Shown here one piece after another: positions 5,969 to 19,778 of a stretch of DNA of 64,000 nucleotides. The number at the start of each line of letters is the position of its first letter. Position 1 is the first letter of the stretch. The translations under genes and the position numbers were made by a program. The notes beneath the pieces are model-generated. The model was not told where the DNA came from. It saw nothing but the letters and a program-made list of their open reading frames with translations, and searched no databases. The DNA is from a virus (taxonomy: Duplodnaviria; Caudoviricetes), in the IMG/VR virus record IMGVR_UViG_3300039452_000187, positions 1 through 64,000 of that record; one strand, written 5' to 3'.

Positions 5969-6341
5969 GGTGTCAGTATGCTAACAGATCTTGCGAGCGC
6001 TGCCAGTCGTTTCGCGGGGACGGCAGGGCAGGTCGGTACTGAACAGGTGTCAAAACTGGTGTCAGCCTGGTTTGGTCAGGAGCAACAGGCGATACTTAAC
6101 TCGTGACAGTGGACAGGTTTGGAGGCGTAGCTCAGTCGGTAGAGCAACGGACTTTTAATCCAACAGTAAGACACTCAAGCAGTCGCAAAAACGTCGAGAA
6201 AACAGCACAAAACAAGCCACTTCCTGAAAAACACGTCGTCCGAAGAGTTCCGTAAAGATCCGCGAAAAGTAGTGTACGCGGGTGTCAGTGACACCAGCTC
6301 TGACACCCGCTGACACCCGCTGAGACCAAGGGCTGGTGTCA
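5969..6341. repeat. Integrase arm-type binding repeats GGTGTCA/TGACACC
   Basis: Copies at 5969, 6046, 6058 (left of core) and 6281, 6289, 6301, 6311, 6321 (TGAGACC), 6335 (right); further copies at 5678, 5688 and 3020. Confidence 0.75.
6121..6161 (+). other. attP core: 5' half of tRNA-Lys(UUU)
   Basis: GGAGGCG-TA-GCTC-AGTCGGTA-GAGC-A-ACGGA-CTTTTAA-TCC, then tRNA similarity stops; no T arm or 3' acceptor strand. Confidence 0.85.
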
Positions 6342-13980: not shown

Positions 13981-14129
13981 GTGGCGTCCGTGACCCTGGC
14001 TGCCGCCCGGAGTGGCTCAACTACCCTTGATCGTTCTCCCGACTCCGGGCGGCGCTTTCTCCCTGCCGGTCTTTTCGTTACATCCTGCGAACCCGTCTTC
14101 TCTTCTTACTGTCCTGCCAACAGAATCTC

Positions 14130-14169
14130 TTGACGCTGGCTTGATCTTGCGCGTCAAGCTGCGTATTCT
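14130..14169 (+). promoter_or_regulatory. Sigma70 promoter of the RNA array with overlapping palindromic operator
   Basis: TTGATC(14141-46)-N17-TATTCT(14164-69); TTGACGC-N14-GCGTCAA (14130-14157) straddles the -35; predicted start ~14175 coincides with the first RNA stem. Confidence 0.7.
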
Positions 14170-14174
14170 GGATA

Positions 14175-14310
14175 AAAAGGATCGTTCCCAACGGCTGGAG
14201 CGTACAAACAAAAGATGCTTCGTAGTGGAGCGTCAGCCTTATAAGCTGAAAGGACGGGTGCGACTCCCGTTCTTTTGTTACCTCGCTTGAGCGACTTGAA
14301 CGGTCCTTTT
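14175..14310 (+). ncRNA. Y-like RNA 1 enclosing a whole tRNA-like cloverleaf (anticodon UAU)
   Basis: Outer stem AAAAGGATCGTTC/GAACGGTCCTTTT, CCAAC/GACTT internal loop, second stem, TACAAAC; cloverleaf 14207-14279 with TCAGC-CTTATAA-GCTGA and ACGGG-TGCGACT-CCCGT. Confidence 0.75.
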
Positions 14311-14317
14311 CTTACTT

Positions 14318-14394
14318 CGCGGGGTGGACTGGAGCCAGGTTTCCAGCACGGTCTCATAAGCCGTCTCACGCAGGTTCAAATCCTGCTCCCGCGA
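14318..14394 (+). tRNA. tRNA with CAU anticodon (Met or Ile2), atypical D arm, no encoded CCA
   Basis: CGCGGGG/TCCCGCG acceptor, ACGGT-CTCATAA-GCCGT, GCAGG-TTCAAAT-CCTGC. Confidence 0.85.
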
Positions 14395-14396
14395 CT

Positions 14397-14535
14397 GTCC
14401 GTGCCCGACAGTGAGAACGTACAAACTGCATGTGGGTTCGACTCCCATCTTCTTCGCAAGGAGAAGTAGCCTAACGGTAAGGCAAACCTCTGATAAAGGT
14501 TGATAGTGATTCCCGTTTTCATGACTTGCACGGAC
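14397..14535 (+). ncRNA. YrlA-like Y RNA with circularly permuted tRNA domain (anticodon GAU)
   Basis: GTCCGTGC/GCACGGAC outer stem, CCGAC/GACTT loop; T arm (GTGGG-TTCGACT-CCCAT), acceptor stem closed by GCAA, D arm (GCCT-AACGGTA-AGGC), anticodon arm (AACCT-CTGATAA-AGGTT). Confidence 0.85.
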
Positions 14536-14540
14536 GATTT

Positions 14541-14660
14541 TCCAGGAGTAGCAGATCAGGTTTGCTTTTGCGACTTGGATGCTCGGCGTCCTCAATGGCA
14601 GAAGCTTACATGCGTCAGCCCGCAAAGCTGAAGAAGCTGGTGCGATTCCAGCCTCCTGGA
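14541..14660 (+). ncRNA. tRNA-like RNA (anticodon GCA) with the Y-like module inserted in the D loop
   Basis: TCCAGGAG/CTCCTGGA acceptor, TCAGC-CCGCAAA-GCTGA, GCTGG-TGCGATT-CCAGC; insert GCTTTTGC-GACTT-GGATGC-tcg-GCGTCC-TCAAT-G-GCAGAAGC. Confidence 0.75.
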
Positions 14661-14695
14661 CTCTCCTTTTGGGTTGTTGCCTAAAGGGACATTGA

Positions 14696-14780
14696 TGGGG
14701 GAGTAGGCTTCATTCTGTTCCGGTGACTTGGACGCTTGGCGTCCCCAACGGTCGAAACATACAAACTCCTACCCACCCCA
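14696..14780 (+). ncRNA. Stand-alone permuted Y-like module RNA
   Basis: TGGGG..GTAGG/CCTAC..CCCCA outer stem; TGTTCCGGT-GACTT-GGACGC-ttg-GCGTCC-CCAAC-GGTCGAAACA-TACAAACT. Confidence 0.7.
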
Positions 14781-14794
14781 CCCGACTGTTTCGA

Positions 14795-14831
14795 GCGGTG
14801 CCGGCTTGATCGCGACCGGCACCGCCTTTTT
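14795..14831 (+). terminator. Intrinsic terminator between RNA array and protein genes
   Basis: GCGGTGCCGG/CCGGCACCGC 10-bp stem followed by CTTTTT. Confidence 0.7.
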
Positions 14832-14864
14832 CTATCCATCGCCACCTGTTCTGGAGGTCATGCG

Positions 14865-15188
14865 ATGCAGCAGCAACAGTTCAACCATCCCCATCAGCAG
14901 CAGCCAGGCGGCATCTTGGACGAGACGCTTGCCGCTACGGCCCACGCGCAAGCCCAGCAGCCCAACGGCGCCGCCACGCCTGTGCGGCTGCTCCATGCCC
15001 GGTTCGGCGGGCGCTCGCACGATATTCCGCTGAGCGTGCTCGATCTCGGGGACCAATCCGCCGACGCGCAGGTGATTGCCGCGCTCGCCAACCATCTGGA
15101 CGTGCCGCGCGAGAAGTTCGCCGCCTACGCGGTCGATCGCTCGCCCAACGGCAACTTCACCGTCCGGCCCGAAGCGGTGTTCGGGTGA
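14865..15188 (+). CDS. Ubiquitin-like (beta-grasp) small protein ending in Gly
   Basis: LHARFGGRSHDIPL (beta hairpin), helix DAQVIAALANHLDVP, terminal strand FTVRPEAVFG*; GGAGG RBS; E1 and JAB in the same operon. Confidence 0.7.
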   Translation: MQQQQFNHPHQQQPGGILDETLAATAHAQAQQPNGAATPVRLLHARFGGRSHDIPLSVLDLGDQSADAQVIAALANHLDVPREKFAAYAVDRSPNGNFTVRPEAVFG

Positions 15189-15439
15189 GCGACCGTTGCC
15201 GCATTGACGAGCATTGCGACTGCTGCGGTGACAAAAGACTGACGCGCGAAGTCCACTTACTTTTCCCAAGCGGCTATGGGGGCCACGTGACCCAACCGGT
15301 CCTGGCCTGTCACGAGTGCGCCTGCCGACAGCTTTACCTGATCGGCTTGAAGCTGACGCCAGAGCAGCTGTGTGAGCTTCGTCGCCAGTTAATGACCGCC
15401 AGAATCGATGCGGAAGATAGCTACACCGGGGGCGAATGA
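15185..15439 (+). CDS. Small Cys-rich Zn-binding protein
   Basis: CDCCG...CHECAC; GTGA overlap with the Ubl gene. Confidence 0.55.
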   Translation: MSDRCRIDEHCDCCGDKRLTREVHLLFPSGYGGHVTQPVLACHECACRQLYLIGLKLTPEQLCELRRQLMTARIDAEDSYTGGE

Positions 15440-15443
15440 AGCC

Positions 15444-17332
<1,889 letters not shown>

Positions 17333-17344
17333 GGATGGTGCCCC

Positions 17345-18259
17345 ATGCCGCGCCTGCGCACCCTCCCTCCTGGCTTTGACCGCCTCGCGGCCGCCGAGTC
17401 CGACTTTTTGCGCCAGCAGTTCCTCGCCCCGCGCCTGGCCAACCAACCCGTCCGCGTCCGCCTCGCCGGGGTGGTCTGTACGCTTCGCGTCGAGCCGGCC
17501 GCCTTCCAGGGCTGGGGCGTCTTCCAGCCTGTGACCTTGGCTCAGGCCCGGCTGGTGCGCCTCGCCTCGCTCCGGGAACGCACCGCCTATCTTTCGCTCT
17601 TCCCGCGCGTCCGCTTTGTCCTCTGTCGTCGCACTAACGACCAGTGGTACGGCTTGCTGGCCGGCGCCGACAGCCGGTTCCACCTGGTTGCGGCCGGCCC
17701 GGTGCCGTTGCAACTGGTGGATTGTCGGCAGTTGTTCGACACGGTTGTCTGTCGATTTGACGGCAGCCAGTTCTGGTGGGAACAGCCCGAGCCGCGCCGG
17801 GCCAAGCCCGCCGAGCAGCTGCGAGAGGCGCTGGCCGGGCTCCGCGAGCCGGAGGCGCTAGAGGTTTTGGGACTGACGCCGGTGGAACAGGCGGTTTACG
17901 AGGCCCATTATCGGGTGCGGCAGGCAGAGATCGCCGACTCGCTCCGCGACCGCACCGAGGAGCGGTTGGCGGCCGCGCTCGAGCATGCCGGGGCCACGTT
18001 GCAGGGGTACCGGGAACGAGAGGATGCGTTTACGGTGGAATACCTTGTGGACGGCGAGCGGCACACGTCGGTGCTCAGGAAGGACGATCTGCAAGTGCAG
18101 GCGGCCGGGATTTGTTTACGCGGCACTGATGGGCGGTTTGATCTGCAGTCGCTTGTGGGTGTTATCCGCGAGGCGAAGGACGGGCACCGGTTGGTGCGGG
18201 TCGGGATCGACAACCCGCATCAGTACCATGAGGACGAAGACCACGGAGACGAGCCATGA
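17345..18259 (+). CDS. Conserved-looking hypothetical protein, candidate divergent E2-like enzyme
   Basis: C-terminal helix plus beta meander ending AAGICLRGTDGRFDLQSLVGVIRE (Cys257); sits between TROVE and JAB/E1. Confidence 0.5.
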   Translation: MPRLRTLPPGFDRLAAAESDFLRQQFLAPRLANQPVRVRLAGVVCTLRVEPAAFQGWGVFQPVTLAQARLVRLASLRERTAYLSLFPRVRFVLCRRTNDQWYGLLAGADSRFHLVAAGPVPLQLVDCRQLFDTVVCRFDGSQFWWEQPEPRRAKPAEQLREALAGLREPEALEVLGLTPVEQAVYEAHYRVRQAEIADSLRDRTEERLAAALEHAGATLQGYREREDAFTVEYLVDGERHTSVLRKDDLQVQAAGICLRGTDGRFDLQSLVGVIREAKDGHRLVRVGIDNPHQYHEDEDHGDEP

Positions 18260-18431
18260 GTTGGGGTGAGAGCGACGACGAAAAATTCGGGCCGGAAGGC
18301 CGCTATGGGCGCTGGCTCTACGAGGACCACGCCACGGGCAAGTTCGCTGCTATGCGCCGTCGGCCCCGGCTTGTCCTTGGAGGAAGCCGAGCGGCGGGCT
18401 GGCACAGTGAACGCAGACCAAGGGGGCGGCG

Positions 18432-18686
18432 ATGCCTGACGAGCAGCAGATCGGTTATTTGTTGGACCGCTGGAAAGAACAGCTGCTGGACGCGGTGCGG
18501 CAAGGTTGCGTGGTCGCCTTTCGGCTGGAGCACGATGGTGGGGAGTTGCTGTTCGGCTATGACGACGAGCCACCGTTCTACGGTCCGATTGAGGGTTGCC
18601 GGTTGACGATCGAGATCGGTCGCTCGGCCATGAAGACGATTCACCGGGCACTGATAGCCGGGAAGACGGAGAGAAAAGCCACGTGA
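18432..18686 (+). CDS. Hypothetical protein
   Basis: ORF with RBS and GTGA overlap with the JAB gene. Confidence 0.5.
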   Translation: MPDEQQIGYLLDRWKEQLLDAVRQGCVVAFRLEHDGGELLFGYDDEPPFYGPIEGCRLTIEIGRSAMKTIHRALIAGKTERKAT

Positions 18687-19120
18687 GCACGACACCAAAA
18701 CCGACGCGAAAGCACAAGCGGAAGAAGAGTGGCGAGAACGAGGTCGCCAGTGTTCTGTTAGGGCGCCGCGCCGGCCGTCTCTGGCTCTGTCGAGCGTGTT
18801 GGGAGTGGACCGGGACTCCCGTCTCGGTGGAGTTTGCCGCCCAGCGTGTCCTCGAGGAAGAAGGCTATTTCGGGGACGTGATGGGCTTCTACCACACGCA
18901 CCCCAACATGCCGGCCCGGCCGAGTGAGCGTGACATCCGCACCATGCAAGCCTGGGTGGGCTGCCTGGGCAAGCCACTGTTGTGTCTTATCAGGGGCCGG
19001 GACGGTTTGCGTGGTTGGGTGTTCCGCGATGATGAGGACAAGGGCCAACCTCTCGTCGCGCTACTTTGGCAGGAGTCCTTTCAACCCGTGCCCATCTTCG
19101 CTGCCCTGACAAAGGAGTAG
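18683..19120 (+). CDS. JAB/MPN metallopeptidase
   Basis: NEVASVLLG...GFYHTHPNMPARPSERD gives the E...HxH..(7)..S..D JAMM motif. Confidence 0.88.
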   Translation: MSTTPKPTRKHKRKKSGENEVASVLLGRRAGRLWLCRACWEWTGTPVSVEFAAQRVLEEEGYFGDVMGFYHTHPNMPARPSERDIRTMQAWVGCLGKPLLCLIRGRDGLRGWVFRDDEDKGQPLVALLWQESFQPVPIFAALTKE

Positions 19121-19124
19121 CACT

Positions 19125-19778
19125 GTGAAACTCTACCGACACGAAGAAGCCTACCGTGGAGCCGCCGGCCTGGCCAAGCTTGCCAGCGCTAGGGTTGTCC
19201 TGTGCGGCGCCGGAGCGATCGGCAGCAACCTGGCCGATCAGCTGGCCCGCCAGGGCTGCTCCAACCTGGCCGCCATCGACCACGACCGCGTCGAGGAACA
19301 CAACATCGGTACCCAGCGCTATGCCCGGCACGATATCGGCAGTCTCAAGGCGCAGGCTCTGCAAGCCGCCGTGTTCGCGGCCACGGGCGCCGAGCTGGAA
19401 GCGGTGGACAAGCACCTGACGGAGAAGAATGCCCGGAAGCTGTTGCGGGCGGCGGACCTGGTGGTCGAGAGTTTCGATAACGCGAGGTCACGCCGGTTGG
19501 TCCAGGATACCTGCCGGGCATTGCCCAAACAGTGCCTGCACGTCGGTTTATTCGAGGGCTACGCGGAGGTTGTCTGGGATGACCGTTACCGCATCCCCAA
19601 GGATCCTCTGCGTGCCGGTACCGGCACCGCTGTGGACGTGTGCGACCTGCCCTTGGCTCGCAACCTCATCATGCTGGCCGTTACGGTCGCCGCCGAAGCT
19701 GTGGTGAGTTATCTGCTTTTCGGCCGGCACCGCTCCTTCACTATCACCTTGGACGATCTGCGCATCAGCGAAAGCTGA
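19125..19778 (+). CDS. ThiF/E1-like adenylyltransferase
   Basis: VVLCGAGAIGS, IDHDRVEEHNIGTQ, K, ESFDNARSR; candidate thioester Cys173 in DVCDLP. Confidence 0.92.
   Translation: MKLYRHEEAYRGAAGLAKLASARVVLCGAGAIGSNLADQLARQGCSNLAAIDHDRVEEHNIGTQRYARHDIGSLKAQALQAAVFAATGAELEAVDKHLTEKNARKLLRAADLVVESFDNARSRRLVQDTCRALPKQCLHVGLFEGYAEVVWDDRYRIPKDPLRAGTGTAVDVCDLPLARNLIMLAVTVAAEAVVSYLLFGRHRSFTITLDDLRISES

What the first reader, a model, noticed from the sequence alone, without database searches (positions are those of the whole stretch)
14175..14780. One Y-like module attached to tRNA bodies in three different topologies, plus a stand-alone copy
Four RNAs share the same element: stem, YCRAY/GACTT internal loop, stem, then TACA(AAC). 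In RNA1 (14175-14310) it closes a complete cloverleaf at the acceptor end. In RNA3 (14397-14535) it replaces the variable loop, giving a circularly permuted T-acceptor-D-anticodon order as in YrlA but retaining a full anticodon arm. In RNA4 (14541-14660) it is itself permuted and inserted in the D loop, leaving free acceptor ends. RNA5 (14696-14780) has the permuted module with no tRNA. Stem sequences differ while pairing is kept, which argues for real structure. RNA1 and RNA4 share GCGTCAGCC...AAGCTGAA and an atypical TGCGA T-loop, indicating common descent. Inference: the module is the binding site for this Ro60 subfamily, and each topology presents a different tRNA face.
Basis: partly seen in the sequence, partly recalled or inferred. 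Interest (0 to 1): 0.9.

Follow-up and report, generated by a model that had tools for sequence, protein, structure and literature searches.

The report
Phage Ro60-type RNAs built on tRNAs
A complete 97-kb phage genome carries, just upstream of a very divergent Ro60-like ring protein, four small RNAs in which one conserved "handle" is joined to tRNA-shaped bodies at three different points (or stands alone); the same designs recur beside the same gene in dozens of bacteria and phages, so this is an undescribed, many-shaped branch of the known Ro60/Y-RNA system.

Summary
RNA1 and RNA3 have outer stem, CCNAY/GACUU internal loop, 8-bp inner stem, then UACAAAC. RNA4 and RNA5 carry the same element circularly permuted and closed by a hairpin.

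It is not chance. A fixed-register scan of the window plus 91 related loci finds 169 modules on the gene strand and 0 on the other. A covariance model of the permuted module gives 121 hits, all on the gene strand. The stems covary. In whole genomes the 5' motif is almost confined to the Ro60 locus.

All three topologies recur elsewhere:
- cloverleaf closed by the handle: about 17 cases with 11 different anticodons
- handle at the variable-loop site, with closed acceptor and full anticodon arm: 5 loci
- permuted handle in the D loop of tRNAs with perfect 7-bp acceptor stems: 26 cases

The neighbouring protein has no Pfam TROVE hit, but its model matches solved Ro60 structures over its full length.

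Best reading: these are Y-RNA-type partners of a divergent phage Ro60, a new variant of the known Rsr/YrlA kind. Binding and function are inferred, not shown. This scan had already noted the same protein family and similar tRNA-handle chimeras on other DNA. I found no published description.

The parts
14175..14310 (+). RNA1: handle (outer stem, CCAAC/GACUU loop, inner stem, UACAAAC) closing a complete cloverleaf at the acceptor end. Anticodon UAU, T loop UGCGACU.
14320..14394 (+). RNA2: tRNA-like cloverleaf (anticodon CAU) without a handle, between RNA1 and RNA3. Not part of the finding, but part of the cluster.
   Evidence: (29.7 bits)
14397..14535 (+). RNA3: handle at the variable-loop position. 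Order is T arm, acceptor closed by a GCAA loop, D arm, full anticodon arm (GAU).
14542..14660 (+). RNA4: tRNA with a free 7-bp acceptor stem and discriminator A. The permuted handle (14563-14613) is inserted in the D loop. T loop UGCGAUU.
14697..14779 (+). RNA5: permuted handle (14716-14766) inside a short closing helix, with no tRNA body.
14795..14832 (+). GC-rich hairpin followed by a U run: the likely intrinsic terminator of the RNA cluster.
   Evidence: -24.4 kcal/mol, z -4.2
14865..15188 (+). Small protein ending in Gly, conserved in 59 related loci among or beside the RNAs. Likely ubiquitin-like.
15689..17332 (+). Ro60-like protein (HEAT-repeat ring plus vWA domain), very divergent in sequence.
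17345..18259 (+). Conserved 304-aa protein of unknown fold, found downstream of the Ro60-like gene in 59 loci.
18596..19120 (+). JAB/MPN-type isopeptidase.
19125..19778 (+). ThiF/E1-like adenylating enzyme.

Best explanation
The four RNAs are Y-RNA-type partner RNAs of the phage's divergent Ro60 protein.

The conserved element is a constant handle, most likely gripped by the Ro60 ring as canonical Y-RNA stems are. It consists of an outer helix, the CCNAY/RACUY internal loop, an 8-bp inner helix of fixed length ending in AGC/GCU or AAC/GUU, and single-stranded UACAAAC.

The variable part is a folded tRNA body. The handle joins it at sites where the tRNA fold tolerates extensions: the acceptor end (RNA1), the variable-arm site (RNA3) and the D loop after G18G19 (RNA4). 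In the cellular relatives it replaces the anticodon stem, as in classic YrlA. Each particle therefore holds a tRNA shape with a different part left free:
- RNA1: anticodon and elbow.
- RNA3: anticodon, with the acceptor closed.
- RNA4: acceptor end and anticodon.

The cluster is probably one transcript ending at the hairpin near 14795-14832 and cut into units.

The likely role is tRNA-centred RNA surveillance or counter-defence during infection: the tRNA body recruits or baits tRNA-binding enzymes onto the Ro60 particle.

Shown: the structures, their conservation, covariation, locus specificity and the Ro60 fold. Inferred: Ro60 binding, processing and biological role.
For: - The sequence and folds match the described anatomy.
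- Strand control: 169 modules on the gene strand against 0 on the other, in 92 sequences. All 121 hits of model R1 are on the gene strand.
- Covariation: outer-stem pairs 7 and 8, which were not used to select modules, are paired in 88% and 83% of cases against 57% and 42% after shuffling. In alignment A2, 90% of cells are paired, 11 of 14 pairs show double changes, and 0 of 500 shuffles reach the observed values.
- Consensus folds have compensatory changes in 26 of 30 pairs (RNA1 type), 14 of 18 (RNA4 type) and 22 of 36 (RNA3 type).
- 26 of 33 compact permuted modules sit in tRNA frames with 7/7 acceptor pairs.
- 12 RNA1-type RNAs are called tRNAs by ARAGORN, with 11 different anticodons.
- In four whole genomes, 20 of 26 matches to the 5' motif lie inside the Ro60 locus on the gene strand.
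- The AF2 model (pLDDT 81) has Ro60 structures as its top 12 PDB matches, E 4e-12 to 4e-8, TM about 0.6.
- Nine module-bearing loci with full flanks lack a detectable p17345 and E1, and seven of them also lack the Ubl.
- The handle's 3' strand aligns to the 3' end of the YrlA model, and cellular relatives score 34-41 bits on YrlA.
- Tertiary covariation: T-loop G55 goes with a D loop that has AG instead of GG (9/11 against 10/176), which argues for a real tRNA-like elbow.
- Established knowledge: bacterial and phage Ro60 proteins bind adjacent Y RNAs that carry tRNA-like domains (PMC4201824, PMC12135203).
Against: - There is no expression, end-mapping or binding evidence for any member.
- The canonical Ro-binding motif GNCGAA is absent.
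- Rfam YrlA scores only 26 bits here, against a gathering score of 69.
- The protein has no TROVE signal by sequence.
- Several RNA1-type relatives encode CC or CCA after the acceptor stem and score like real tRNAs. They could be tRNA precursors rather than stable chimeras.
- Most loci also hold a ubiquitin-like protein, an E1-like enzyme, a JAB peptidase and a 304-aa unknown. Any of these might be the true handle binder.
- The covariation shuffles do not correct for phylogeny.
Confidence: 0.6

Rival explanations
1. The handle is a maturation or stabilisation scaffold for phage tRNAs, not a lasting part of the RNA. RNase P and 3' trimming would release working tRNAs from RNA1-type precursors, and RNA4-type molecules would be decoding tRNAs with an enlarged D loop. 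Ro60 or a nuclease such as RNase III would act only on the precursor.
For: - RNA1-type relatives score 44-66 bits as tRNA directly after UACAAAC.
- AAAC of the motif forms the start of the acceptor stem, and many relatives have CC(A) after the discriminator.
- Anticodons are diverse and the anticodon loops are normal.
- Related loci often adjoin arrays of 10-25 tRNA genes.
- Mycobacterium smegmatis YrlA is cut by RNase P and receives CCA in vivo (PMC4201824).
Against: - The same handle is attached to cargoes that cannot become tRNAs: closed acceptor stems (RNA3 and about 80 classic YrlA-like RNAs), plain hairpins, a 23S rRNA-like segment, and RNA5.
- The window's tRNA bodies are weak (27-47 bits) and have non-canonical elbow nucleotides.
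- The uniform A/U-rich acceptor starts are unlike identity-bearing tRNAs.
- The loop sequences and the fixed 10-nt spacing are conserved across phyla, unlike generic RNase III stems.
- Ordinary tRNAs in the adjacent arrays lack the handle.
Confidence: 0.2
2. The handle is recognised by another product of the conserved cassette, not by Ro60. Candidates are the 304-aa protein, the E1-like enzyme or the ubiquitin-like protein.
For: - The ubiquitin-like gene lies among the RNAs in many loci.
- The ubiquitin-like protein, p17345 and E1 co-occur with the Ro60-like gene in most full loci.
Against: - Nine module-bearing loci with complete flanks have the Ro60-like gene but no detectable p17345 or E1.
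- The handle resembles the canonical Ro-binding stem of YrlA on its 3' strand.
- Ro60 is the only cassette protein with a known RNA-binding fold.
Confidence: 0.12
3. The cluster is a decaying remnant of a tRNA array, and the shared stems are chance or simple sequence duplication.
For: Low tRNA scores for three of the four bodies. RNA5 alone folds no better than shuffles (z -0.6).
Against: - Strand asymmetry of 169 to 0.
- Compensatory changes in the stems.
- Each topology recurs in distant loci and phyla.
- The motif is specific to the Ro60 locus in whole genomes.
Confidence: 0.02

Closest known systems
Bacterial YrlA Y RNAs bound by Rsr/Ro60 (Rfam RF02553; Chen et al. 2014, PMC4201824; Wang et al. 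2018, 10.1101/312249)
   Same: - Encoded next to and on the strand of a Ro60-type gene.
- The 5' and 3' ends pair into a stem with an internal loop.
- The cargo is a tRNA-like domain. RNA3 has the same T arm, closed acceptor and D arm order, matching model positions 30-81.
- ACUUG plus stem on the 3' strand.
- A UAC that may correspond to the YUAY that opens the V loop in YrlA.
- Several Y RNAs per locus.
   Different: - The 5' strand has CCNAY instead of GNCGAA.
- UACAAAC is invariant and the inner helix has a fixed length.
- Scores are far below the Rfam gathering score (26-41 bits against 69).
- RNA3 keeps a full anticodon arm.
- The RNA1, RNA4 and RNA5 topologies are not described for YrlA.
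- There are up to 10 handle-bearing RNAs per locus.
- The partner protein is silent to the Pfam TROVE model and usually sits in an operon with ubiquitin-like, E1-like and JAB genes rather than RtcB/RtcA.
Phage Ro60 with Y-RNA-like partners (Thermus phage phiLo Ro60 with Yrl1/Yrl2, PMC12135203; mycobacteriophage YrlA, PMC4201824)
   Same: A phage-encoded Ro60 ring with Y-like RNAs just upstream. phiLo Ro60 structures (9kop, 9l5y) are among the fold matches.
   Different: The phiLo RNAs were identified by the CGAA motif and are plain stem-bulge-stem RNAs. No tRNA cloverleaf, D-loop insertion or permuted handle is reported there.
Ordinary tRNA (RF00005) and phage tRNA arrays
   Same: RNA1 passes the Rfam tRNA threshold and ARAGORN calls it tRNA-Ile (UAU). 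RNA4 has acceptor, anticodon and T arms. Relatives lie beside long tRNA arrays.
   Different: - The bodies are embedded in or interrupted by a roughly 50-nt protein-type handle.
- The elbow nucleotides are non-canonical (G55, no GG in RNA1).
- RNA3's acceptor stem is closed.
- The whole phage genome holds no tRNA genes outside this cluster; the only other match to the tRNA model is a sub-threshold one at 6121-6225.

Membership tests
YrlA / bacterial Y RNA (RF02553) | Reaches the Rfam gathering score (69 bits) | tested here: not met
   Best hit is 26.2 bits over model positions 30-81, in RNA3 only. Cellular relatives reach 34-41 bits. None of 10 loci reaches the gathering score.
YrlA / bacterial Y RNA (RF02553) | Encoded within a few kb of a Ro60 orthologue, on the same strand | tested here: met
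   The RNAs end 0.9 kb upstream of the Ro60-fold gene. Modules occur only on the gene strand. Genome-wide motif hits concentrate in the locus.
YrlA / bacterial Y RNA (RF02553) | GNCGAAN0-1G motif near the 5' end within the terminal stem (PMC4201824) | tested here: not met
   The 5' strand carries CCAAC, CCGAC or UCAAU instead. Only the 3' strand ACUUG is shared.
YrlA / bacterial Y RNA (RF02553) | tRNA-like domain in the order T arm, closed acceptor-like stem, D arm | tested here: met
   Met for RNA3. RNA1, RNA4 and RNA5 have other arrangements.
YrlA / bacterial Y RNA (RF02553) | Bound by and stabilised by Ro60 | not testable with these tools
   Needs immunoprecipitation or gel shift.
Ro60 / TROVE protein (window 15689-17332) | Pfam TROVE domain (PF05731) detectable by sequence | tested here: not met
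   No TROVE hit even at E up to 10. vWA_Ro60 scores 13.5 bits here and 25 bits in homologues, against a cut-off of 27.7. No PDB sequence match.
Ro60 / TROVE protein (window 15689-17332) | HEAT-repeat ring plus C-terminal vWA domain, Ro60 fold | tested here: met
   The AF2 model has pLDDT 81. The top 12 Foldseek matches are all Ro60/TROVE structures over the full length, TM 0.51-0.66.
tRNA (RF00005) | Cloverleaf scoring above the gathering score | tested here: met
   RNA1 scores 46.6 bits and ARAGORN calls it tRNA-Ile (UAU). The RNA3 body scores 29.8 and RNA2 29.7. RNA4 scores 27, below the threshold of 29.
tRNA (RF00005) | Free, mature 5' and CCA 3' ends; aminoacylation and decoding | not testable with these tools
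   In RNA1 the ends are buried in the handle. In RNA3 the acceptor is closed by a loop. RNA4 has free ends but no encoded CCA.

The most novel reading that the evidence does not exclude
The handle is a universal adaptor. With it, phages and mobile elements display a library of interchangeable RNA baits on a Ro60 ring: four different faces of the tRNA fold, and in relatives an exact copy of a 23S rRNA segment. The baits would capture or sense host enzymes that attack tRNA and rRNA. The adjoining ubiquitin-like/E1/JAB cascade would then act on what is caught. In the boldest form, it would load the ubiquitin-like protein's activated C-terminal glycine onto the free acceptor end of the RNA4-type tRNA.
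Probability: 0.1. Interest if true: 0.92.

Novelty: new variant of a known kind. Interest (0 to 1): 0.72.

Why it matters
Why bacterial Y RNAs imitate tRNA has been open since 2014. This family is a natural experiment. The same protein handle is grafted onto the tRNA fold at the acceptor end, the variable-arm site, the D loop and, in relatives, the anticodon stem. Anticodon loops are kept and vary between copies. That makes it testable which face of the tRNA matters, and to whom.

The family also enlarges the Ro60 world: about 2,000 homologues that sequence models do not recognise as TROVE, mainly in Planctomycetota and their phages. It links Ro60 to a prokaryotic ubiquitin-like cascade. The compact, transplantable 50-nt handle could also serve as a tool for tethering RNAs to a protein.

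Tried and rejected
- Rfam at gathering thresholds found only tRNA hits and no YrlA, in the window and in 10 loci.
- Pfam, NCBIfam, PHROGs and a PDB sequence search gave nothing diagnostic for the Ro60-like protein. The fold search was needed.
- My first scanner, which used a rigid inner-stem register, was too strict and found only 18 hits. I replaced it with a duplex-energy version and then a corrected-register version.
- The sigma-70 promoter scan found no promoter on the RNA strand. The simple terminator scan missed the long-loop hairpin after RNA5, which I then folded separately.
- The Atlas search gave nothing for the 304-aa protein.
- The idea from earlier scan notes that such handles match Dictyostelium Class I RNAs is weak here. 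[quoted passage not shown] I do not rely on it.
- Rfam gave no LSU rRNA hit for the rRNA-like cargo. An exact 16-mer check settled that point instead.
- Burroughs and Aravind 2016 and the 2020 Annual Review on bacterial Ro60 could not be opened. My statement that no published description exists rests on five full-text searches only.

Full report
**Setting.** The window is the first 64 kb of a 97,554-bp virus record with direct terminal repeats, rated complete. The region 14175-14780 lies 0.9 kb upstream of an ORF at 15689-17332. The nearest relatives of that ORF's product (about 58-60% identity) come mostly from Planctomycetota, so the host is probably a planctomycete. That is an inference.

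**The observation.**
- RNA1 (14175-14310) has a 13-bp terminal stem, a CCAAC/GACUU internal loop, an inner helix, UACAAAC, and then a cloverleaf. Rfam scores the cloverleaf at 46.6 bits and ARAGORN calls it tRNA-Ile (UAU).
- RNA3 (14397-14535) has the same handle. It is followed by a T arm, an acceptor stem closed by a GCAA loop, a D arm and a complete anticodon arm. Rfam's YrlA model matches the T, acceptor and D part (26 bits, model positions 30-81) and the tRNA model matches the D, anticodon and acceptor part.
- RNA4 (14542-14660) has a 7-bp acceptor stem, anticodon and T arms. In its D loop, after a GG, sits the handle in permuted order, closed by a 6-bp hairpin.
- RNA5 (14697-14779) is the permuted handle inside a short closing helix.
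- Minimum-energy folds reproduce RNA1 and RNA3 (z -5.5 and -3.6). RNA5 alone is not exceptional thermodynamically.
- A GC-rich hairpin with a U run follows RNA5, so the five RNAs look like one transcription unit.
- The phage genome has no tRNA genes outside this cluster; apart from the cluster, the tRNA model gives only one match, below its cut-off, at 6121-6225.

**The protein.** Pfam, NCBIfam, PHROGs and a PDB sequence search give no TROVE signal. There is only a weak vWA_Ro60 match, which reaches 25 bits in homologues against a cut-off of 27.7. An AlphaFold model built from 25 homologues (pLDDT 81) has Ro60 structures as its 12 best PDB matches. These include human, Xenopus, Deinococcus Rsr and Thermus phage phiLo, over the full length, at E 4e-12 to 4e-8. 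It is a Ro60-fold protein of a branch that sequence models miss. About 2,000 homologues were found.

**More than chance.** I fetched 80 genomic and 11 viral loci encoding relatives.
- UACAAA clusters in 2-9 copies just upstream of the gene, on its strand.
- A scanner with a fixed register looked for outer stem, YYNAY, 10 nt and UACA, with a partner of 11 nt, RACUY and outer stem. It finds 155 standard and 14 compact permuted modules on the gene strand and none on the other strand. All four window copies are among them.
- Outer-stem pairs 7 and 8 were not used for selection. They are paired in 88% and 83% of modules, against 57% and 42% after shuffling. Pair 2 is A-U in 80 modules, G-C in 46, C-G in 17 and U-A in 5.
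- An alignment of 15 permuted modules is 90% paired, with double changes in 11 of 14 pairs and 0 of 500 shuffles as good.
- The covariance model built from that alignment gives 121 hits, all on the gene strand.
- In four large genomes, the 5' half of the handle occurs almost only inside the Ro60 locus: 4/5, 6/7, 3/3 and 7/11 matches.

**The topologies recur.**
- RNA1 type: 17 RNAs from 14 loci share a consensus of outer stem, inner stem, D, anticodon and T stems, with compensatory changes in 26 of 30 pairs. Twelve are called tRNAs, with 11 different anticodons. AAAC of the motif forms the start of the acceptor stem, and many have CC(A) after the discriminator.
- RNA4 type: 26 of 33 compact permuted modules lie in tRNA frames with perfect 7-bp acceptor stems of varied sequence, a normal anticodon arm and a T arm. 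Some of these share the window's UGCGA T loop.
- RNA3 type: four further loci have the same order including the anticodon arm, with compensatory changes in 22 of 36 pairs.
- The commonest form in cellular loci (about 80 copies) is the classic YrlA design, in which the handle replaces the anticodon stem.
- The same handle also carries plain hairpins, a form with V stem, T arm and acceptor but no D arm, and an rRNA-like cargo.

The handle is therefore a constant adaptor and the cargo is variable.

**A real tRNA-like fold.** Where T-loop position 55 is G instead of U, the D loop has AG instead of the universal GG in 9 of 11 cases. Where position 55 is U, this happens in 10 of 176 cases (not corrected for phylogeny). 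This looks like a compensated elbow contact. Window RNA1 follows it (UAG in the D loop, UGCGA in the T loop).

**Who binds the handle.** This step is inferred.
- For Ro60: the locus and strand specificity, and the likeness of the 3' strand (ACUUG plus stem) to the 3' end of the Rfam YrlA consensus. Also, nine module-bearing loci with complete flanks have no detectable p17345 or E1, and seven of them also lack the Ubl, yet all keep the Ro60-like gene.
- Against certainty: the canonical GNCGAA motif is absent. Most loci also carry a conserved cassette: a small protein ending in Gly whose Atlas model resembles ubiquitin-fold proteins, the Ro60-like gene, a 304-aa unknown, a JAB peptidase and an E1-like enzyme.

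**Mechanism.** The most likely reading is that Ro60 holds the handle and the tRNA body projects from it. Which part is free depends on the attachment site. All the sites are places where the tRNA fold naturally tolerates extensions: the terminus, the variable arm and the D-loop variable region.

Known biology links Rsr/YrlA operons to tRNA damage and repair (PMC7790460) and phage Ro60 to host PNPase (PMC12135203). M. smegmatis YrlA is cut by RNase P and receives CCA (PMC4201824). A role in tRNA-centred surveillance or counter-defence is plausible but untested. The main rival is that the handle is only a precursor scaffold and that RNA1 and RNA4 types mature into working tRNAs. The many cargoes that cannot become tRNAs argue against this as the general rule.

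**Origin of the permuted form.** The long hits of the permuted-module model are junctions between tandem standard RNAs. The 3' half-handle of one RNA and the 5' half-handle of the next share complementary outer strands. Loss of the spacer would create the compact permuted module.

**Comparison and novelty.** The closest known system is Rsr/Ro60 with YrlA. This family shares the neighbourhood, the terminal stem, the tRNA mimicry and the multiplicity of RNAs. It fails the Rfam threshold and the 5' motif test. It adds an invariant UACAAAC, three further topologies, retained anticodon arms and a different operon partner set. Full-text searches found no description.

Earlier notes of this scan had already recorded the same protein family in a Gemmata genome. 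They had also recorded Ro60-like genes with tRNA-handle chimeras and a ubiquitin-like cascade in other phages. Those are unpublished AI notes, not independent evidence. I saw the cassette in my own tblastn before reading them.

**Verdict.** This is a real, conserved RNA family: a new variant of a known kind. The structure is firmly established and the function is inferred.

Noticed in passing
window 14865-19778; related loci L001-L092: The Ro60-like gene belongs to a conserved cassette. It holds a small protein ending in Gly with a ubiquitin-like predicted fold (59 loci), the Ro60-like gene (91), a 304-aa unknown (59), a JAB peptidase (27) and a ThiF/E1-like enzyme (51). This links a Ro60 particle to a ubiquitin-like cascade.
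   Followed up: partly
L023:3477-3664 (also L020:3285, L021:5722, L025:5737, L039:3773, L090:1413): Some handle-bearing RNAs carry a cargo that copies a 23S rRNA segment. In the genome of L023, a 16-mer occurs only twice: once inside the 23S gene and once inside this Y-like RNA.
   Followed up: partly
L004, L010, L013, L029, L035, L055, L059 (upstream 3 kb): Arrays of 10-25 ordinary tRNA genes lie directly upstream of the handle RNAs and the Ro60-like gene in many related loci. The window's phage has no such array.
   Followed up: no
window 14209-14278 and 14636-14652; L065, L075, L080, L086, L090: A T loop with G at position 55 (UGCRA) goes with a D loop that has AG instead of GG: 9/11 against 10/176. 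This is a possible alternative elbow contact in tRNA-like RNAs.
   Followed up: partly
window 14320-14394: RNA2 is a handle-free tRNA-like cloverleaf (29.7 bits) with anticodon CAU. Together with RNA1 (UAU) and RNA3 (GAU), the first three bodies carry the three isoleucine-type anticodons.
   Followed up: no
window 14129-14160: An 8-nt inverted repeat (CTTGACGC / GCGTCAAG) lies just upstream of RNA1. It could be an operator or a transcript-end hairpin. No sigma-70-like promoter was found on this strand.
   Followed up: partly
L010:5634, L014:5583, L021:5569, L025:5581, L026:5542, L029:5576: Short hairpin-cargo RNAs with the same handle lie immediately after the stop codon of the Ro60-like gene in several cellular loci.
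   Followed up: no
L065, L075, L078, L080 (Abditibacteriota); L042, L043, L052, L063 (Chloroflexota): These relatives of the Ro60-like gene lack the UACAAAC handle by my scan. The Abditibacteriota loci instead have YrlA-like T/D arms downstream of the gene, so the handle sequence probably differs by lineage.
   Followed up: no
window 6121-6225: A weak tRNA-model match (25.5 bits, below the cut-off) lies far from the cluster.
   Followed up: no
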